Assembly (NCBI GenBank): GCA_964421955.1
Contig: CAYQYU010000001.1
Span: 64,001 to 128,000, forward strand
Direction of reading: 5' to 3'
Origin: an uncultured archaeon
GTDB lineage: Archaea > Nanohalarchaeota > Nanosalinia > Nanosalinales > Nanosalinaceae
DNA: 64,000 nucleotides
Part shown: positions 16,134 through 63,991 of the stretch, in pieces
How positions within the stretch are numbered: position 1 is the stretch's first letter
Layout of the letters: every line of letters begins with the position of its first letter
Made by a program: the position numbers and the translations under genes
Notes under the pieces: model-generated
Seen by the model: the letters and a program-made list of their open reading frames with translations, nothing else
The model's database searches: none
What the model was told of the DNA's origin: nothing

Positions 16134-17522
16134 TTACCTGCTGTAGATCACGTAGTTACACGTATCTCCCCTGATTTCAAAAGACTTTCCGTACCTCTGG
16201 TTGAGCCGGTTCTCGAACTCTTCTATACTGCTTAGGCATTCCCTGTTACCTCTGCAGTCCCAGTAGCACTGGTTAATGGCCCAGTGATCTATCTCTCCTC
16301 TTTCCTCCTCGAAGATCTCGGAAAGCTCAGGCGGCGGTAACTCCTGGTATGAAAAATCGGCGTAAAGATTGGTTGCAGGATCATTAGTGGCTATCCTGCC
16401 CTCGAGAGTGGAGACCTCCCCGAGAAACTTTCGGCGGTCAGGATTCTCCCATGTCACCGCGTTGAAGGTCGTCATGAAGCTGTAAGACATGACCGCGATT
16501 ATGGCTGCAAGGAGCAGCCACTCGATCCGAATCTTTTCCAGATCGATCCGCTCCTTTAACTCCAAAAGCCCTCTCGCAGAGAACACGGCCATAACCGGGA
16601 GGAATGGCAGGATGTAACGCTCCAGTTTCAGGGGAAACACCCCGAAGAAAACGTAGAAAACTACAAGTCCGGAGAAGAACGCACCATAGTTCCAGTCCCT
16701 GTCACTGAAGACCGCGTAAAGTCCGACCGGGAGGAATATCTGGAGAGGATTCGACCTGACCGCCCCGACAAGGTAGTATGCGAAAGCAGTGTAGTCAGCG
16801 CCCGCAGCAGCTGTGTTGCCAGCGCTTACCAGGAACGGTTTCAGCATCGACCCCTCAAAGAACTGGAGGAAGAGCATGTACGGGACGACTATTAACGCTA
16901 CAGCCGTTGCAAACCTGGAAATACTGTTTATTGAACTCCTCAGGTCACCTCTCTTGATTCCCCTGGCAAGTATGAAAACAACCGCAGCTACCCCCACGAG
17001 CGCGGCAGGATACCTGAACAGGAAGGCCGAGGCCGCCAGAACCCCTGCCGGAAAGTATTTTTCCCGGGTGACCATGTAGAGAGACGCGAAGATCAGTATT
17101 GAGGAGGGTATTCCGGTCAGTATTTCAGGTGTGAAAAAGTAGTAGACATGTGATGCCGCTACTATTCCCGCGGTCGCGATCGCCTCCGTCCTGCCAAACA
17201 ACCGGTCCGTCAGAGTGTAAAATATTCCGATTCCGATCGCTGATACTCCCAGACCTACCAGTCTCGGGTAGCCCAGCATCGGCATTCCCAGTTTCCAGAA
17301 GAGTCCTATAATCATCGGTACTCCCGGACCTCTCAAAGCGGACCAGAATCCGTATTCGCCCATGGAGTAGATGTATTTGCCGGTGGCGATGTAGATACTT
17401 GAGTCCCAGAGCAGCGGTTTCTGCCATATTGCTGCGATCAGCACCAGCTGGCCGAGTATAAAAGCGGCTATTATAACGCTAAGCATCCAGTTCTGCTCCA
17501 GCCATTCTCTGAATTTTACCAT
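16134..17522 (-). CDS. Multi-TM GT-C glycosyltransferase (ArnT/PMT-like)
   Basis: WDSSIY motif after first TM, many TM helices, ERYILPFLP motif. Confidence 0.78.
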   Translation of the reverse strand: MVKFREWLEQNWMLSVIIAAFILGQLVLIAAIWQKPLLWDSSIYIATGKYIYSMGEYGFWSALRGPGVPMIIGLFWKLGMPMLGYPRLVGLGVSAIGIGIFYTLTDRLFGRTEAIATAGIVAASHVYYFFTPEILTGIPSSILIFASLYMVTREKYFPAGVLAASAFLFRYPAALVGVAAVVFILARGIKRGDLRSSINSISRFATAVALIVVPYMLFLQFFEGSMLKPFLVSAGNTAAAGADYTAFAYYLVGAVRSNPLQIFLPVGLYAVFSDRDWNYGAFFSGLVVFYVFFGVFPLKLERYILPFLPVMAVFSARGLLELKERIDLEKIRIEWLLLAAIIAVMSYSFMTTFNAVTWENPDRRKFLGEVSTLEGRIATNDPATNLYADFSYQELPPPELSEIFEEERGEIDHWAINQCYWDCRGNRECLSSIEEFENRLNQRYGKSFEIRGDTCNYVIYSR

Positions 17523-23953: not shown

Positions 23954-25603
23954 CTAATCCCTGACTAGATTCAGGAGTTTCTGCACATCGATCTCGAAGC
24001 CCGCAACCTTTCTGTCGAGCCCCCAGTTTTCCACCACACTGTTAGAGAACTCGCCTATGACTCCTACATGTTCCCCTTCGAACATGATATCTCCGGAGCG
24101 ATCCTGGCGGAAACATTCTTTCCCGGAAGATTCAATCTCAAATTCGACTCCGAGTTCACGCCCCAGAACCTGTAAAACCTGCCGTACATCAGTGTAGCCC
24201 ACTCCATTGTCCGAGTGAACATATGCTAGCTTCCTCTTGTTCGAAACACCTACCGCAGAGTTGTCGAGTTCGGAAACATCCGCGACCTCGAAGAACTTCT
24301 GCGGGTAGCTCCTGTGCCTATTCCGGCCGAGCACCTCCATAAGCGACGGCAGTAGCCAGTTCCTCACAGCGGTATAATCCTCAGTTAGGGGGTTCGACAT
24401 AGAGGCGATGTCTTCCTCCTCTAAGCCCATCTTTTCGAACAGCTTCTCCCTGTTTGAAAGGATGTAGGTATGAGCCTCCAGAGCCCCGGTTCCCTGGAAA
24501 ATATCTCTCAACAGCCGTGTATAATTCTCGACCGGTTTCTCGTTACCGATCTGGTCGGCCTCCGGCAGCTCTGGCTCTATATTATCGTATCCATGGGCTA
24601 TCACCACGTCCTCTATAACATCATACTGGTGCATCACATCGTTCCTGTAGGCGGGCACCTCAACAATGATCTTCCTCTTTTTCTTCTTCGCGCCGAACTT
24701 CATCCTCTCCAGCCGCTCGACAATCTCCTTCCCGTCGAGTTCAAGTCCGGAGACCTTCTGGAAGTACTCGATATCAAGCTCCCGCTCCTCCGGTTCGAGA
24801 TCCGGCATTACAGTGCCGTCGACACCCACTGCCTCTATCTTTCCTCCTCTCTCCGCCAGCGCAGTCGCAAGGATATTCAGGGCCTTCATAACTGTTTCAC
24901 GATCCTTTCCTGTAACATCGATGAAGATGTCCTGGGTTCCTGCAGAAACTTCTGTGAGCTGGTTGTTAATGATAGGCGGGAATGAGAGTACACGGTCTTC
25001 CGCATCCACAATTATAGGGTAGCGGTCCTCGTCCTCCAGTATCCAGGCGTACTCCTGTCCTTTCTCGTGCTCTTCGAGAATCTCCCCGAGCTGCATCTCT
25101 CTGTCATACTCAAGCGGTTTGAAAGATACTTTCTCGGGTTCGACCGCCCTGTATGTGAAAGGAGGCTCAACAGCGTCAAGGTCATGGAGGCCGATAGCGA
25201 GCTTGTCACGCCTTCTACCCATCGATTCATGGAGCTTCTCCTGTAGCTGTATCAGTCCGTTGATCATCCTCTCTGAAAGCTCCAGATCACGGACAACCGC
25301 ACCGCCGATGTAAGGTCTTACGTCTTCAACCGAATCTTCAATCCTGATCTCCGTGCTGCCGTCCCGGATCCTGTATTCGTCCAGACCCTGCTCCAGCCCG
25401 AAGAATCCTCGATACGCGCGGGCAAGACCCTCCACTGACAGAAGGTCGGGACGGTTAGGATAGACCTCCACGTCCCACTTTTCGCCTTCTACGTGGTTCC
25501 AGTGCGCGCCCAGGAAAGACGCCTTTTCGTGGAGAAGCCGCTCATCAACCTCATTCTCCATTAGACTGTCGAACTCCTTCTTGTTTATTTTGATATGTGA
25601 AAT
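23954..25603 (-). CDS. pheT: Phenylalanine-tRNA ligase beta subunit (probable ATT start at 25603)
   Basis: PNRPDLLSVEGLARA, LQEKLH, IGLHD, SFPPIIN, YRNDVMHQYDVIEDV; in-frame upstream extension SHIKINKKEFDSL. Confidence 0.95.
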   Translation of the reverse strand: MSHIKINKKEFDSLMENEVDERLLHEKASFLGAHWNHVEGEKWDVEVYPNRPDLLSVEGLARAYRGFFGLEQGLDEYRIRDGSTEIRIEDSVEDVRPYIGGAVVRDLELSERMINGLIQLQEKLHESMGRRRDKLAIGLHDLDAVEPPFTYRAVEPEKVSFKPLEYDREMQLGEILEEHEKGQEYAWILEDEDRYPIIVDAEDRVLSFPPIINNQLTEVSAGTQDIFIDVTGKDRETVMKALNILATALAERGGKIEAVGVDGTVMPDLEPEERELDIEYFQKVSGLELDGKEIVERLERMKFGAKKKKRKIIVEVPAYRNDVMHQYDVIEDVVIAHGYDNIEPELPEADQIGNEKPVENYTRLLRDIFQGTGALEAHTYILSNREKLFEKMGLEEEDIASMSNPLTEDYTAVRNWLLPSLMEVLGRNRHRSYPQKFFEVADVSELDNSAVGVSNKRKLAYVHSDNGVGYTDVRQVLQVLGRELGVEFEIESSGKECFRQDRSGDIMFEGEHVGVIGEFSNSVVENWGLDRKVAGFEIDVQKLLNLVRD

Positions 25604-27009
25604 TACGCATCACCTCCCGTCTTGTCCGGCCTCCATGCTGGCGTCTGTTCAAGTATTTCGATGTCGTTCCTGTAGAGTTCACGGATATCTTCAAGTCCTG
25701 CAGACTTCATCGCTATTCTCGGTATCCCTAGGCCCCAGGCGAGAACCGTAGCCTCGAATCCCAGCATCGGTTTCACCACTTCCGGCCGGAACATTCCCGC
25801 GCCGCCGAGCCCCACCCATTCCTGGTCTTTCTCATCCCACACATGCACCTCGACACTCATCTCGGTGTAGGGGAAGTAGCTCGGGACTAAACGGAACTCC
25901 TCGAACCCCATTTTGCTGAAGAACTCGCTGATGTAACCCTTCAGGTTCGTGAACGACAGGTCTTTCCCGACGACTATGCCGTCGGTCTGGTAGAACTCTG
26001 CGAGATGGAAGCGGTCGACTGTCTCGTTCCGGAAGTTCCTGGATACTGTAAAGAACTTCTTCGGCAGCTCCTCTTCATTTACATCGATCTCATGTATCCT
26101 CTGTATAGAGACCGCAGTAGTATGTGTCCTAAGAACATTCTTCTTTGCCTCCTCCAGCGACCAGTCGTATCCCCAGCCTCTTGAGCCTGTTTCCCAGCCG
26201 TTTTCATGCGTCTGCTTCACGTGATCGACCTTGTCTCCATAGCTTGAAAGGTCCGCTTCCGCAGGATCTTCCATGAAGAATGTGTCATGCATCTCCCTTG
26301 CAGGGTGGTCCTGGGGGGTATAGAGCGCGTCGAAGTTCAGGAAGCTCGATACTATGAAGTCGCCAGACATCTCCTGGAAGCCCATTTCCAGCCACTTCAT
26401 CCTTGCCTGATCTATTATGTCCTTGTAGAAATGTTTCTTGCCGATACGCGGGGTCTTCACCGATGCCTCGACATTAAAGTCCTCGTCGATTTCGCCCAGT
26501 TCTACCGACTCACCCTCCGCAGTGATCTCGATGACTCTCTCCGTTTTTTCCCGGGTTCTTACCAGCCCGCGTTCTTCAAGGTCGGTATCGTAGTTCCGGG
26601 ACTCCAGCTTCTGCCGGACAGGATCGCTGTCAAGATTCTCCCTGCCTTTCCTGGTGAGCGATGCCTCGCCGTCCTCGAGCCTCACCCACGATTTTTCTCT
26701 CGCTTTCCCTAAAGCTACGTCGAGATCAAGGTCTTGGAGATCAGAAAGTTCTCTGGATTCATCTTCGAGCCTCTGCACCAGCTGGTATTCCGGGGAACCG
26801 TGCTCCAGAACATCTCTGCCCGCGTCGGTAAGTTCGTGCGTTAGTTCATCCTCTTCCTGTATCTTCGCGAGCCCTTTCTCTTCAAGTTCCAGCCCGGCCC
26901 TGTGAACCATCGACTGGTCGTATCCCTCTTTCTCGAGATCCTCAATCTTCAGGGAACTCTTCTGCTTGAGCTCCTCCAGAATCTGGATTGCCTGGCTTGA
27001 AAGCTTCAC
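25603..27009 (-). CDS. pheS: Phenylalanine-tRNA ligase alpha subunit
   Basis: NFDALYTPQDHPAREMHDTF, LRTHTT, FRNETVDRFHLAEF, SYFPYTE, GAGMFRPEV; GTG start. Confidence 0.96.
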   Translation of the reverse strand: MKLSSQAIQILEELKQKSSLKIEDLEKEGYDQSMVHRAGLELEEKGLAKIQEEDELTHELTDAGRDVLEHGSPEYQLVQRLEDESRELSDLQDLDLDVALGKAREKSWVRLEDGEASLTRKGRENLDSDPVRQKLESRNYDTDLEERGLVRTREKTERVIEITAEGESVELGEIDEDFNVEASVKTPRIGKKHFYKDIIDQARMKWLEMGFQEMSGDFIVSSFLNFDALYTPQDHPAREMHDTFFMEDPAEADLSSYGDKVDHVKQTHENGWETGSRGWGYDWSLEEAKKNVLRTHTTAVSIQRIHEIDVNEEELPKKFFTVSRNFRNETVDRFHLAEFYQTDGIVVGKDLSFTNLKGYISEFFSKMGFEEFRLVPSYFPYTEMSVEVHVWDEKDQEWVGLGGAGMFRPEVVKPMLGFEATVLAWGLGIPRIAMKSAGLEDIRELYRNDIEILEQTPAWRPDKTGGDA

Positions 27010-38162: not shown

Positions 38163-38267
38163 CCGTCTATATCAGTATCTTTTAATCGATATAAATCTGC
38201 TGACCCGGAGGATTAATGGTTTAAAAGAGTGCACTCCGGTTTCGTTTTATACAACCAGCGTTTCTAT

Positions 38268-38342
38268 AGCGGGGTAGAGCAGCCAGGAGTGCTCGTCGGG
38301 CTCATAACCCGGAGGTCCGTGGTTCAAATCCACGCCCCGCTA
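38268..38342 (+). tRNA. Initiator tRNA-Met(CAT)
   Basis: A1-U72 pair, GGG/CCC anticodon stem, CT-CAT-AA loop, TTCAAAT T-loop; TTTTATA box ~20 nt upstream. Confidence 0.95.
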
Positions 38343-38421
38343 AAACTTCTGAAAGTTTTATCATCATAAACCATTCAATGACTGGCTTTCAGCGCTTGAT
38401 CGAACTTAGCGCCTGAAGTTC

Positions 38422-39601: not shown

Positions 39602-39735
39602 GGGCCGGTAGCTCAGTCTGGCAGAGCGCGAGGCTCTTAAACACCTCAAGTCTCCGCAGGAGACGAGGACCCAGAAAATCTCCGATTTTCGATAGAGATA
39701 CCTCGTCGTCGTGGGTTCAAATCCCATCCGGCCCG
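39602..39735 (+). tRNA. tRNA-Lys(CTT) with 60-nt intron at 37/38 (39640..39699)
   Basis: GGGCCGG/CCGGCCC acceptor, CGAGG/CCTCG stem, CT-CTT-A|A; CTCT pairs with intron AGAG (BHB central helix). Confidence 0.93.
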
Positions 39736-62083: not shown

Positions 62084-62251
62084 TTTATAAAACTTGGTTG
62101 TGACTGTTGAATTACTCTCAGGCACACTGGAACCACTGGTTCCGGGTTCGCAGAAGCTCCGTCAAGGAGTTTCGAGCGGTTCTTGGGAGACAAGCCTTCG
62201 CTTGTGGTGAAGGCCTCTGGAGCGAGTCAACCGAACAAGAGGTGACTATCT
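62084..62251 (+). promoter_or_regulatory. TATA box and structured 5' leader of the rpl3 operon
   Basis: TTTATAAA 62084-62091; several hairpins; GAGGTGA SD 62239-62245. Confidence 0.6.
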
Positions 62252-63223
62252 ATTTCCGACGTAAACAGACCACGCAGTGGATCGCTAGGGTTCAAGCCCA
62301 AGGTACGCGCACAGAGGATCTATCCAGAGATAGATAACTGGAAGGACGAGGAAGAGATGAAGCCGCTGGGATACGCCGGCTACAAGGTCGGCATGACACG
62401 AATCCTGATGATCGACGATACCGAAGGAGCGACAAGCGGTCAGGAAGTTGCGACACCAGTAACAGTACTTGAAGCACCACCTCTCCGGATATACGGCGCC
62501 CGTTTTTACACCGAAGACCCTAATTCCGGTAAGCAAGTCTTCACTGAAGCGTGGACTGAATCGCCTTCTCCAGAGCTACAAAGAGCGACCGACATCCCGA
62601 AGGAAGGCAACATGGACAACTTTGACGCGGCAAAGGAGATTTCCGACGATCTGATTGACGTGAGGCTCCTGGTCCATACCCAGCCATCACAGGCCGGCAT
62701 TAGCAGGAAGAAGCCGGAGAACTTCGAGATCGGTCTCGGAGGAACAGTTGACGAAAAAATTGAATACGCGGAAGAGATGATTGGAAAGGAGATAGAGTTC
62801 TCCGACGTTTTCGAGCCAGGAGAGTACTCCGATGTTGTCGCAGTGACCAAAGGACGTGGTACTGAGGGTCCGATCAAGAGATACGGCATCAAGAGGTTGA
62901 CCCACAAGACCCAGAAGAAACGACGCAAGGCAGGAAACGTTGGCCCATGGCATCCTGACAAGCTATCGTGGAAAGTTCCACTTCCAGGGCAGCAGGGCTA
63001 CAATAACCGGACGGAGCTGAACAAGAGAATCATCGGATACGGAGAGGAGCCTGAAGAAGTACAGCGCGACGGAGGATTCAAGGGCTACGGCGAGGTCAGG
63101 TCGAACTACATACTCATTAAGGGATCAGTTCCCGGCTCTGAGGAGAGACTTGTAAGGCTGAGAACCGCGCTGAGAAAAGACGAAAAACCAGGAGAACCAG
63201 AGATAACACACGTTGACAGGTGA
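62252..63223 (+). CDS. rpl3: 50S ribosomal protein uL3 (probable ATT start at 62252)
   Basis: GYKVGMT, VTKGRG, GPWHP, GQQGY..RTE.NK; in-frame upstream RPRSGSLGFKPKVRA is the conserved uL3 N-terminus. Confidence 0.97.
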   Translation: MSDVNRPRSGSLGFKPKVRAQRIYPEIDNWKDEEEMKPLGYAGYKVGMTRILMIDDTEGATSGQEVATPVTVLEAPPLRIYGARFYTEDPNSGKQVFTEAWTESPSPELQRATDIPKEGNMDNFDAAKEISDDLIDVRLLVHTQPSQAGISRKKPENFEIGLGGTVDEKIEYAEEMIGKEIEFSDVFEPGEYSDVVAVTKGRGTEGPIKRYGIKRLTHKTQKKRRKAGNVGPWHPDKLSWKVPLPGQQGYNNRTELNKRIIGYGEEPEEVQRDGGFKGYGEVRSNYILIKGSVPGSEERLVRLRTALRKDEKPGEPEITHVDR

Positions 63224-63232
63224 GAACTAAAA

Positions 63233-63991
63233 ATGACCGATCTACCAGACCAGTTCAATGAACGAGTGAGGCCGGACATTATCAAGCGCGCGGTTCTTTC
63301 AATCCAGTCGAAGAACCGCCAGAGCTACGGAAGCGATAGAGAAGCTGGTCTGAAACACATGACCTACTGGAAGAAGAGAAATAACGCATTTAGAAGCCAG
63401 AAAGGAAGAGGACAGTCACGGACGCCCCGGAAGATTGTTAGAAGACAGGGCAGCCAGCTCGTAGGAATAGGTGCAGAGGCTCCGAACACCCGAGGCGGTA
63501 GAAGGGCACATCCTCCAAAGGTAGAAAAGGATTTCGACGAGGAGATCAACGACAAGGAGCGCAGGAAAGCAATCCGTTCCGGAATCGCGGCCTCCAACGA
63601 TATCGATCTAGTCAGCGAAAAGCACAGTTACGAGGGCGATCTTCCGCTTGTAGAAGATATCGAGGACATCGAAAAGACCTCGGAGCTTGAGAAGACGCTA
63701 GAAGACCTCGGACTCGAGGAAGAGCTTGAAAGAGTCAGGGAAAAGAATGTTAGAGCCGGCAGAGGAACATCCCGCGGAAGAAAATACCGCAGAAAGGTGG
63801 GGCCTCTGCTCGTAGTTGCTAAAGACGGCGGTATCTTCGACGCCGCATCAAATCTTCCGGGAGTCGATATCTCCCGGGTCGAAAACCTTAACGCAGAGCT
63901 TCTCGCACCCGGCACAAAGCCAGGAAGACTGGTAGTCTGGAGCGAGGAAGCACTGGAAAAACTTGGAGACGAGCAGCTTTTCGTGGATTGA
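63233..63991 (+). CDS. rpl4: 50S ribosomal protein uL4
   Basis: VRPDIIKRAV, GRGQSRTPR, GGRRAHPP, LAPGTKPGRL. Confidence 0.97.
   Translation: MTDLPDQFNERVRPDIIKRAVLSIQSKNRQSYGSDREAGLKHMTYWKKRNNAFRSQKGRGQSRTPRKIVRRQGSQLVGIGAEAPNTRGGRRAHPPKVEKDFDEEINDKERRKAIRSGIAASNDIDLVSEKHSYEGDLPLVEDIEDIEKTSELEKTLEDLGLEEELERVREKNVRAGRGTSRGRKYRRKVGPLLVVAKDGGIFDAASNLPGVDISRVENLNAELLAPGTKPGRLVVWSEEALEKLGDEQLFVD

What the first reader, a model, noticed from the sequence alone, without database searches (positions are those of the whole stretch)
62239..62359. rpl3 appears to start at ATT (AUU) behind a perfect Shine-Dalgarno
Seen: the first in-frame ATG (62357) removes 35 codons. The upstream frame reads GAGGTGA-CTATCT-ATT TCC GAC GTA AAC AGA CCA CGC AGT GGA TCG CTA GGG TTC = (I/M)SDVNRPRSGSLGFKPKVRAQRIYPEIDNW. 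An in-frame TGA lies three codons before the ATT, and no ATG/GTG/TTG occurs between that stop and 62357. Established: PRxGSLxFxPxxR is the conserved N-terminal extension of archaeal/eukaryotic uL3, and AUU initiation is known as a regulatory device for bacterial infC. Inference: this essential gene initiates at AUU. With the identical arrangement at pheT, this suggests SD-directed AUU initiation as a lineage trait, or a regulatory circuit sensing initiation fidelity.
Basis: partly seen in the sequence, partly recalled or inferred. Interest (0 to 1): 0.85.

Follow-up and report, generated by a model that had tools for sequence, protein, structure and literature searches.

The report
uL3 gene starts at AUU
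In this nanohaloarchaeal genome the essential ribosomal protein uL3 gene carries ATT where every relative examined has a normal start codon, and related genomes show that ATT/ATC starts behind a strong ribosome-binding site recur in this lineage and are missed by gene finders.

Summary
GAGGTGA, then 6 nt, then ATT (62252-62254) opens the uL3 frame. An in-frame TGA lies 3 codons upstream, and no ATG/GTG/TTG occurs before 62357. The ATT aligns exactly with the start codon of uL3 in 29 of 29 relatives (27 ATG, 1 GTG, 1 TTG) and in 24 of 24 named Nanohaloarchaea records. The 35 codons after it encode the conserved archaeal N-terminus.

ATT here is unique to this genome. Independent reads could not confirm it. 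The mechanism is nonetheless established for the lineage:
- Whole-genome comparison with two relatives finds ATT/ATC starts behind GGTG[A/G]+6-7 nt in different genes of all three genomes.
- Some are shared across genera (a Zn-finger protein, lipoamide dehydrogenase).
- The MetRS gene has ATT or ATC in 17 of 22 family members.

The initiator tRNA (CAU), aIF1 and the 16S anti-SD all look ordinary.

Best reading: SD-directed initiation at AUU by Met-tRNAi, as a lineage habit. Public annotation truncates these genes (uL3 to 288 aa, pheT to 535 aa). A regulatory role is untested for uL3 but plausible for MetRS. There is no direct protein or ribosome evidence.

The parts
62084..62092 (+). TTTATAAAA, a TATA-box-like element about 160 nt upstream of the ATT; the same motif stands at the matching place in several relatives
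   Evidence: Sequence. Aligned UUUAUAAAA in L011, L013, L015 and L019. Its role as a promoter is inferred; no transcript data.
62194..62214 (+). Conserved hairpin in the rpl3 5' leader (GCCTTCGCT-TGT-GGTGAAGGC), followed by CCTCTGG
   Evidence: The MFE fold of the G000 leader and RNAalifold on 22 family loci pick the same stem. The arms change together (GCCUUC/GAAGGC, GCCUCU/AGAGGC, ACCUCC/GGAGGU, GCCCUUU/AAAGGGC). No Rfam family matched at gathering score.
62239..62245 (+). Shine-Dalgarno GAGGTGA, 7 nt complementary to the 16S rRNA 3' end, 6 nt before the ATT
   Evidence: The 16S 3' end ...GGATCACCTCC was found on G000 contig C16. GGTG-to-start spacing of 7 nt is the commonest for canonical starts in this genome (25 cases).
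62243..62245 (+). In-frame TGA (part of the SD) that closes the frame three codons upstream of the ATT
   Evidence: TGA is also the stop of uL3 itself at 63221-63223.
62252..62254 (+). ATT, the proposed initiation codon of uL3
   Evidence: It aligns with ATG (27), GTG (1) or TTG (1) in 29 of 29 relatives and with ATG in 24 of 24 genome-contig loci. Residue 5 from it matches position 1 of TIGR03626 and residue 3 matches position 3 of NF003261.
62252..63223 (+). uL3 (rpl3) coding sequence read from the ATT, 323 codons plus TGA
   Evidence: NF003261 gives 379.2 bits (cut-off 341) and TIGR03626 gives 373.3 bits (cut-off 308.7). Solved archaeal L3 chains align from chain residue 3-5.
62357..62359 (+). 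First canonical in-frame ATG (codon 36), the start used in the public annotation. This Met is found only in this genome (relatives have Q, L, V, T, K, E or R there). GAGG lies 5 nt upstream.
   Evidence: The 288-aa product is on record from NCBI.
63233..63991 (+). uL4 (rpl4), the next gene of the operon, with ATG behind AGGTGA
   Evidence: TIGR03672 rpl4p_arch, E 1e-75, 254.4 bits (curated cut-off 269.75, so just below it). Sequence.
25610..25617 (-). SD GGAGGTGA ahead of pheT, lying inside the 3' end of pheS
25601..25603 (-). ATT, the proposed start of pheT. It shares its A with the TAA stop of pheS (TAATT).
   Evidence: It aligns with ATG (23) or GTG (4) in 27 of 29 relatives' loci. TIGR00471 matches from residue 3.
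23954..25603 (-). pheT coding sequence from the ATT (549 codons plus stop)
25603..27009 (-). pheS, upstream of pheT and overlapping it by one base
   Evidence: NF003210 gives 439.4 bits.
38267..38343 (+). tRNA-Met with anticodon CAT, A1 with U72, and GGG/CCC next to the anticodon loop. These are initiator-type features (the criteria are recalled).
   Evidence: The G016 copy differs at one base of the tRNA body as printed.

Best explanation
The uL3 mRNA of this nanohaloarchaeon is leadered. Its GAGGUGA pairs with the 3' end of 16S rRNA (…GGAUCACCUCC) and places the AUU at 62252, six nucleotides downstream, in the P site. Initiator Met-tRNA (anticodon CAU) pairs with the first two bases and tolerates the U:C mismatch at the third. 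Full-length uL3, with its conserved N-terminal extension, is therefore made, probably with Met as the first residue. This is not peculiar to uL3. In this family, AUU and AUC (rarely AUA) serve as start codons of genes with a strong SD at 6-7 nt. That accounts for roughly 4-5 genes per ~1-Mb genome, against 54-73 SD-led canonical starts. Individual genes switch between AUG/GUG and AUU/AUC over evolutionary time. uL3 and pheT of this genome are recent switches. Shown: the sequence anatomy, the homology of the start position, the recurrence and inheritance of such starts, and the presence of normal tRNAi, aIF1 and anti-SD. Inferred: that initiation really occurs at the AUU, with Met, and how efficiently.
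For: (1) Position. The ATT aligns with the start codon in 29 of 29 relatives' loci (27 ATG, 1 GTG, 1 TTG; 10 further matches got no locus and were not examined). It aligns with ATG in 24 of 24 genome-contig loci (the two sets partly overlap).
(2) The 35 codons after it are coding. Against the nearest N-terminus (L273), codons 2-28 show 9 synonymous changes and 1 conservative change. NCBIfam archaeal L3 models and solved L3 chains align from residue 3-5.
(3) The SD is a 7-nt perfect match to the anti-SD found in the genome, at the modal spacing.
(4) Recurrence. In ortholog comparisons of whole genomes G000, G016 and G017, I tallied the codons standing 5-9 nt behind GGTG in N-termini that are conserved at least 8 codons upstream of any ATG/GTG/TTG. 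These were ATT 3 + ATC 2 of 15 (G000), ATT 3 + ATC 2 of 14 (G016), and ATC 3 + ATA 1 of 8 (G017). No other codon exceeded 2. That is 13 ATT/ATC of 37 against a 3.3% background, binomial P about 1e-10. Orthologs shared between genomes make this an overstatement.
(5) Inheritance across independent assemblies. The Zn-finger protein has ATC in G000 and ATT in G016 and G010, with ATG in 7 of 9 informative relatives. Lipoamide dehydrogenase has ATC in G000 and ATT in G016, with ATG/GTG/TTG in 27 of 29 relatives. MetRS has ATT in 9 and ATC in 8 of 22 family loci, each 6-8 nt behind GGTG[A/G].
(6) Where one genome has ATT/ATC, the other often has ATG/GTG at the same codon behind the same SD: the RFC subunit, a membrane protein at G016:173371, and a FlaJ-like membrane protein at G000 C12:13043.
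(7) The second codons are Ser, Ala or Thr, as at ordinary N-termini.
(8) The independent Logan assembly of run X1 agrees with the window at all 16,740 listed positions, so the window shows no general sign of base errors.
Against: The ATT at uL3 (and at pheT) is seen only in this one metagenome-assembled genome, at about 7x depth. The contig pieces listed by read laying stop at 62116 and resume at 62425, so the site is not shown as covered. X1 may in any case be the source sample. There is no RNA, ribosome-profiling or N-terminal peptide evidence. In Sulfolobus, aIF1 rejects AUU in vitro (review PMC4705826, passages read), and aIF1 is present here, so efficiency may be low. This genome alone has an ATG at codon 36 with GAGG 5 nt upstream, so a truncated product is conceivable. 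In G000 and G016 the MetRS codon at the SD+6 position is GTC and TTC. Simple single-mismatch pairing with CAU does not explain these, so the rule is not fully understood. The pattern SD+ATT on its own is not enriched.
Confidence: 0.72

Rival explanations
1. Base-call, consensus or minor-allele artefact: the organism's uL3 really starts with ATG, and the T at 62254 is an error or a rare variant picked up by the assembly.
For: Depth is only about 7x. The ATT is unique among 29 + 24 relatives. The site is not within any listed contig piece, and 9 variant rows and 376 pieces were not shown.
Against: A second G000-specific ATG/GTG-to-ATT change sits at pheT, and an ATC at the C12 membrane protein, all behind an SD. 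Random errors would rarely hit three start codons and give ATT/ATC each time. The listed X1 contigs match the window at 16,740 of 16,740 positions. No variant row was listed at 62252-62254. ATT/ATC starts are demonstrably real in independent assemblies of relatives.
Confidence: 0.1
2. The start codon was lost, and uL3 is now made from the internal ATG at 62357 (as annotated). This would give a protein without the archaeal N-terminal extension, resembling the bacterial uL3 N-terminus.
For: ATG at codon 36 is unique to this genome, and a GAGG lies 5 nt upstream. Gene callers chose it.
Against: The 35 upstream codons are intact and show a purifying-selection signature (9 synonymous against 1 conservative change in codons 2-28). 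The extension is present in all relatives and in the solved archaeal and eukaryotic uL3 sequences. GAGG at 5 nt is 3-5 nt closer than the spacing used by SD-led genes here. A perfect 7-nt SD stands at the right distance from the ATT. The timing of the mutation is unknown, so recent loss cannot be excluded.
Confidence: 0.06
3. The AUU is reached by termination-reinitiation rather than by primary SD-directed initiation. A ribosome finishing an upstream reading frame at the TGA (62243) restarts 6 nt downstream, as it could at pheT after pheS.
For: For pheT the ATT overlaps the pheS stop (TAATT). For uL3 an in-frame GTG-GTG at 62204-62209 opens a 13-codon frame ending at the TGA. The Soppa-lab paper PMC10666635 on coupling was seen only in a search listing and abstract.
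Against: The uL3 leader frame lies inside the conserved hairpin. It has no SD of its own and is not conserved as a reading frame in relatives. Several ATT/ATC starts in relatives have no in-frame upstream ORF.
Confidence: 0.05
4. TGA is read as a sense codon, so uL3 starts at the upstream GTG (62204 or 62207) and the ATT is internal.
For: The frame upstream of the TGA is open back to at least 62150 and contains GTG GTG.
Against: uL3 itself ends at TGA 63221-63223, exactly where the family profiles end, with uL4 starting 10 nt later. The upstream translation is not conserved in relatives, where TAA or TAG often stands just upstream of the start. The stretch forms a conserved RNA hairpin.
Confidence: 0.01

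Closest known systems
AUU start codon of bacterial infC (IF3)
   Same: Both are an essential translation-related gene with AUU behind an SD. The codon is read by initiator tRNA and is discriminated against by a fidelity factor (IF3 in bacteria; aIF1 rejects AUU in Sulfolobus in vitro). Source: review PMC4705826, passages read.
   Different: The infC AUU is conserved and autoregulatory. The uL3 AUU is confined to one genome and concerns a protein that is not an initiation factor. Here aIF1 itself starts with ATG. MetRS is the better analogue within this lineage, with AUU/AUC in 17 of 22 family members, but no feedback has been shown.
GUG/UUG alternative start codons of archaea and bacteria
   Same: Both are near-cognate codons decoded by the initiator tRNA and used interchangeably with AUG at homologous genes. 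Relatives show GTG or TTG at the same uL3, pheT and lpd positions.
   Different: The mismatch is at the third codon position rather than the first. Gene finders do not consider these codons, so the genes are annotated truncated.
Near-cognate initiation sites seen by ribosome profiling in Haloferax volcanii (Gelsinger et al. 2020, PMC7261190)
   Same: About 30% of putative alternative start sites were near-cognates of AUG in a haloarchaeon whose transcriptome is mostly leaderless (passage read). The genome here is also mostly leaderless.
   Different: Those sites were set aside as possible false positives and were alternative sites. Here the AUU/AUC is the only possible start of conserved, essential full-length proteins, and it is supported by phylogenetic conservation.
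AUU/AUC/AUA initiation in animal mitochondria (recalled from general knowledge; no call)
   Same: Both relax the third position of the start codon (AUN), with Met inserted.
   Different: Mitochondria have no SD and use a single modified tRNA-Met. Here the SD appears obligatory, and the tRNA modification state is unknown.

Membership tests
Archaeal ribosomal protein uL3 (NCBIfam TIGR03626 / NF003261) | Whole-protein score above the curated cut-off | tested here: met
   NF003261 scored 379.2 bits against a cut-off of 341. TIGR03626 scored 373.3 bits against 308.7.
Archaeal ribosomal protein uL3 (NCBIfam TIGR03626 / NF003261) | N-terminal extension (PRxGSLxFxPxxRA) present and aligned to the start of the profile | tested here: met
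   Query residues 3-322 match profile positions 3-335 (NF003261). Query residue 5 matches profile position 1 (TIGR03626). Solved L3 chains align from chain residue 3-5. This holds only if translation begins at the ATT.
Archaeal ribosomal protein uL3 (NCBIfam TIGR03626 / NF003261) | Operon context with uL4 directly downstream | tested here: met
   ORF 63233-63991 matches TIGR03672 rpl4p_arch at E 1e-75. Its 254.4 bits are just under the cut-off of 269.75.
SD-directed initiation at a near-cognate AUU (infC type) | AUU at the position homologous to the start codon of orthologs, with no canonical start available | tested here: met
SD-directed initiation at a near-cognate AUU (infC type) | Shine-Dalgarno sequence complementary to the organism's own 16S 3' end at a functional spacing | tested here: met
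   GAGGTGA plus 6 nt, against the anti-SD GGATCACCTCC on C16.
SD-directed initiation at a near-cognate AUU (infC type) | Conservation of the non-AUG codon among orthologs (the hallmark of a regulatory start) | tested here: not met
   For uL3, 0 of 29 and 0 of 24 relatives have it. For pheT, 0 of 27 informative relatives have it. The feature is met for MetRS (17 of 22) and partly for the Zn-finger protein and Lpd.
SD-directed initiation at a near-cognate AUU (infC type) | Protein N-terminus or initiating ribosome mapped to the AUU | not testable with these tools
   No RNA run was listed. No proteomic data are available.
SD-directed initiation at a near-cognate AUU (infC type) | Dependence on the level of a fidelity factor (autoregulation) | not testable with these tools
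   Only the presence of aIF1 could be tested: PF01253 is found in 36 of 41 genomes and in 21 of 21 high-quality ones.

The most novel reading that the evidence does not exclude
Nanohaloarchaea may have a relaxed third-position rule for SD-led initiation (N-U-Y codons: AUU and AUC, and even GUC and UUC/UUU at MetRS). This could arise from a change in initiator-tRNA C34 modification or in aIF1. The MetRS gene may be deliberately held on a weak AUY start across at least 17 genera, as a feedback device coupling MetRS synthesis to initiator-tRNA charging or to initiation stringency. That would be an archaeal counterpart of the infC AUU circuit. The uL3 and pheT switches in this genome would then be by-products of that permissive machinery.
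Probability: 0.2. Interest if true: 0.8.

Novelty: new variant of a known kind. Interest (0 to 1): 0.6.

Why it matters
Start-codon choice in archaea is usually taken to be AUG, GUG or UUG, and all common gene finders assume so. The comparative evidence here shows that a whole archaeal family uses AUU/AUC for a small but steady share of its SD-led genes. These include essential ones (uL3, PheRS beta, MetRS, an RFC subunit, lipoamide dehydrogenase). This matters in three ways. First, public annotations of these genomes carry N-terminally truncated essential proteins (uL3 at 288 instead of 323 aa, pheT at 535 instead of 549 aa). Such truncations can distort protein alignments, phylogenies and judgements of gene integrity for these genomes. 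Second, it gives a natural system for asking how aIF1/aIF2-based initiation tolerates a third-position mismatch when an SD is present. Third, the near-universal AUY start of MetRS suggests a testable translational control point. In six full-text searches I found no paper reporting AUU/AUC starts in Nanohaloarchaea or DPANN. Supplements were closed and subscription journals are not covered.

Tried and rejected
Pattern statistics alone led nowhere. GGTGA-N4-8-ATT gives 8 matches in the window against 8.73 expected. Genome-wide tallies of codons behind GGTGA, without a homology filter, show no ATT excess, because most hits lie inside genes or in non-coding frames.

A codon-usage score for the region upstream of the first canonical start ranked uL3 only moderately. 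It mainly served to list candidates.

Reads. The look-up of sequencing runs listed 3 DNA runs of one study and no RNA holder. Read laying served only Logan contigs, and the listed X1 pieces end at 62116 and restart at 62425. The site could therefore be neither confirmed nor refuted.

TGA as a sense codon was rejected (see rivals).

A frameshift or an alternative-frame ATG was considered for several candidates. It explains some of them as ordinary: G000 C4:25373, C3:64488, C3:24364 and C1:137545 have an SD+ATG short ORF in another frame, followed by a canonical start. It does not explain uL3.

Many 'startless' N-termini of 8-17 codons in the ortholog screen turned out to be conserved promoter DNA (TTTAAA/TTTATA about 25 nt before a leaderless ATG). 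They were discarded by eye. The census still contains two doubtful calls (G000 C11:18634 and G016:358573).

Rfam found nothing in the rpl3 leader.

aIF1 loss was considered as the cause and rejected, because aIF1 is present. An unusual initiator-tRNA anticodon was also rejected, because it is CAT.

Not used: the search for homologous proteins, the search of protein representatives, structure prediction, fold search, complex prediction, the protein-atlas search and search_dna_similar.
Full report
OBSERVATION. The window is G000:C1:64001-128000 of a 922,649-bp, 27-contig assembly. At 62239-62245 stands GAGGTGA, followed by CTATCT and ATT (62252-62254). The TGA inside the SD (62243-62245) is in frame with the ATT. 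No ATG, GTG or TTG occurs in frame until ATG 62357, 35 codons downstream. Read from the ATT, the frame gives ISDVNRPRSGSLGFKPKVRAQRIYPEIDNW... and runs to TGA 63221-63223. The pattern SD-N4-8-ATT is not itself unusual: 8 matches in the window against 8.73 expected.

WHAT THE GENE IS. Read from the ATT, the protein matches the archaeal L3 equivalogs above their cut-offs (NF003261 379.2 against 341; TIGR03626 373.3 against 308.7). The profile N-termini align to residues 3-5. Chains of solved ribosomes named L3/uL3 align from chain residue 3-5. uL4 follows 10 nt downstream.

HOMOLOGY OF THE START. The genome search found uL3 in 40 of 41 genomes of the family and order and returned 30 loci. In the 29 relatives' loci, the codon aligned with the ATT is ATG in 27, GTG in 1 (L026) and TTG in 1 (L030). 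GGTG(A) usually stands 6-11 nt upstream. A second, partly overlapping set of 24 named records all have ATG there. The ATT is thus at the ancestral start position and is unique to this genome. Against the most similar N-terminus (L273), codons 2-28 differ by 9 synonymous changes and 1 conservative change. Six more replacements cluster in the acidic linker at codons 29-36. The segment has therefore been under protein-level constraint for most of the divergence. The date of the ATG-to-ATT change cannot be set.

IS IT AN ASSEMBLY ERROR? Only Logan contigs of three DNA runs from one study were served, and X1 may be the source sample. X1 covers the bin at about 6.8x. Its eight listed pieces match the window at all 16,740 positions, but they stop at 62116 and restart at 62425. 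Another 376 pieces and 9 variant rows were not shown. The site is therefore neither confirmed nor contradicted. The argument against error is indirect. The same genome has a second private ATT at pheT and a private ATC at a FlaJ-like membrane protein, each behind an SD. In addition, ATT/ATC starts are present in independently assembled relatives (see below).

pheT. GGAGGTGA-TGCGTA-ATT (25603-25601, minus strand) precedes 14 conserved codons before the first ATG. Of 29 relatives' loci, 23 have ATG and 4 have GTG at the aligned codon. One has ATA with a GTG three codons upstream, and one locus is partial. Unlike uL3, this ATT shares its A with the TAA stop of pheS (TAATT), so translational coupling may help.

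GENOME-WIDE AND LINEAGE-WIDE PICTURE. I fetched the complete contigs of the closest relative G016 (1,027,595 bp) and of a more distant family member G017 (1,046,959 bp). I compared stop-to-stop translations with G000. Most genes are leaderless: a conserved TTTAAA/TTTATA lies about 25 nt before the ATG. SD-led canonical starts number 54, 63 and 73 among 548, 548 and 480 ORFs with orthologs. I then took N-termini that are conserved at least 8 codons upstream of any canonical start and tallied the codons 5-9 nt behind GGTG. These were ATT 3 and ATC 2 of 15 in G000, ATT 3 and ATC 2 of 14 in G016, and ATC 3 and ATA 1 of 8 in G017. No other codon exceeded 2. That is 13 of 37 against a 3.3% background (P about 1e-10). 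The P-value is overstated by shared orthologs, and two calls are doubtful.

The genes concerned are as follows:
- G000: uL3, pheT, a C2H2 Zn-finger protein (C13:18716), and a FlaJ-like membrane protein (C12:13043). Lipoamide dehydrogenase (C4:27991, ATC at spacing 4) was missed by the filter.
- G016: lipoamide dehydrogenase, an RFC subunit, a membrane protein (173371), and the Zn-finger protein.
- G017: the E2 lipoyl protein (41925), a membrane transporter (824739), and MetRS. A glycosyltransferase with ATA (851042) was seen.
Where one genome has ATT/ATC, another often has ATG/GTG behind the same SD.

INHERITED CASES. Across 40 relatives:
- The Zn-finger protein has ATC (G000) and ATT (G016, G010), and ATG in the 7 other informative loci.
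- Lipoamide dehydrogenase has ATC (G000), ATT (G016) and ATA (L189, with a GTG three codons upstream). It has ATG in 23, GTG in 2 and TTG in 2 of 29 relatives.
- MetRS is the most striking. Of 22 family-f1 loci, 9 have ATT and 8 have ATC, always 6-8 nt behind GGTG[A/G]. In most of them no canonical codon occurs before or inside the HIGH motif. Two loci have ATG and one possibly GTG. G000 has GTC and G016 has TTC at the same SD+6 position.
ATT and ATC alternate among genera while G is avoided. This argues that AUY is a working start, possibly a selected one, in this family.

MACHINERY. The genome's 16S rRNA ends ...GGATCACCTCC, so GAGGTGA pairs over 7 nt. A tRNA-Met with anticodon CAT and initiator-type features lies in the window (38267-38343). 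aIF1 (PF01253) is present in G000 and in 36 of 41 genomes, and in 21 of 21 high-quality ones. It starts with ATG. The review PMC4705826 (passages read) reports that Sulfolobus aIF1 rejects AUU in vitro and that bacterial infC uses AUU for autoregulation. Gelsinger et al. (PMC7261190, passages read) found about 30% near-cognate codons among putative alternative start sites in Haloferax but set them aside. PMC10783764 (passages read) lists GGAGGUGA as the nanohaloarchaeal SD and did not try alternative starts.

MECHANISM. Shown: the anatomy, the homology, the recurrence, and normal components. Inferred: SD/anti-SD pairing fixes the AUU in the P site, and Met-tRNAi accepts the third-position mismatch. 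The yield is probably lower than from AUG, which may be tolerable in a small-genome symbiont or offset by the strong SD. For uL3 and pheT the change looks like a recent, tolerated switch rather than a conserved regulator. For MetRS a regulatory role is plausible but untested.

COMPARISON AND NOVELTY. This works like the known near-cognate starts (infC AUU; GUG/UUG). It fails the conservation criterion of a regulatory start at uL3. Six full-text searches found no report of AUU/AUC starts in Nanohaloarchaea or DPANN. Supplements were closed. I rate it a new variant of a known kind. The public annotation holds the truncated uL3 (288 aa) and pheT (535 aa).

VERDICT. AUU initiation at uL3 is the best reading (0.72). 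Assembly error is about 0.10, an internal ATG start about 0.06, reinitiation about 0.05, and TGA read-through about 0.01. Interest is 0.6.

Noticed in passing
G000:C8:20126 (L148/L114) and L149-L177: MetRS lacks a canonical start in most family members. ATT (9) or ATC (8) of 22 loci stand 6-8 nt behind GGTG[A/G]. G000 has GTC and G016 has TTC at that position. Three loci of another family (L172-L174) have TTC/TTT behind AGGTG[A/T]TCAGCC. This could be a conserved weak start acting as a control point. GTC, TTC and TTT are not explained by single-mismatch pairing.
   Followed up: partly
window 62115-62251 (hairpin 62194-62214): The rpl3 operon leader carries a hairpin conserved across 22 family loci, with compensatory arm changes. 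ACAAG precedes it and CCU(A/C)UGG follows it. It lies about 25 nt before the SD and matches no Rfam family. It may be an r-protein autoregulatory site.
   Followed up: partly
G000:C3, about 40 nt upstream of 59668 (L212:1391-1430); also L215: The aIF1 gene is preceded by GATCACC-aga-GGTGATC. This is a perfect inverted repeat in which an anti-SD mimic could sequester the SD of the initiation-fidelity factor's own mRNA.
   Followed up: no
window 62342-62359: The ATG at uL3 codon 36 is unique to this genome (relatives have Q, L, V, T, K, E or R there). It lies in a patch of six replacements that creates GACGAGGAAGAG-ATG. This may be coincidence or a secondary start.
   Followed up: partly
G000:C1:10289 (L117): A TraB-like protein has no ATG, GTG or TTG for about 70 conserved codons. 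CTG ATA stands where G016 has ATG CCA, behind GGGGAG plus 6 nt.
   Followed up: no
G000:C3:64488, C4:25373, C3:24364, C1:137545: Short ORFs of 16-26 codons, each with a strong SD and ATG, sit just upstream of and out of frame with ordinary genes. One example is MSKNQRFSALAENTGGVFE* before the S8-like gene. They could be leader peptides or remnants.
   Followed up: no
window 39602-39735: Rfam reports a 134-nt tRNA match (51.2 bits) that ARAGORN did not list. It is probably an intron-containing tRNA.
   Followed up: no
L286 (record title): A record titled as a Colwellia polaris MAG carries a uL3 locus 77% identical to this nanohaloarchaeal protein. It is probably a mis-binned or mislabelled contig.
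   Followed up: no
G017:C1:1019948 (minus strand): A 421-codon membrane protein is conserved about 129 codons upstream of its first canonical start, with no recognisable SD. Its start is unexplained.
   Followed up: no
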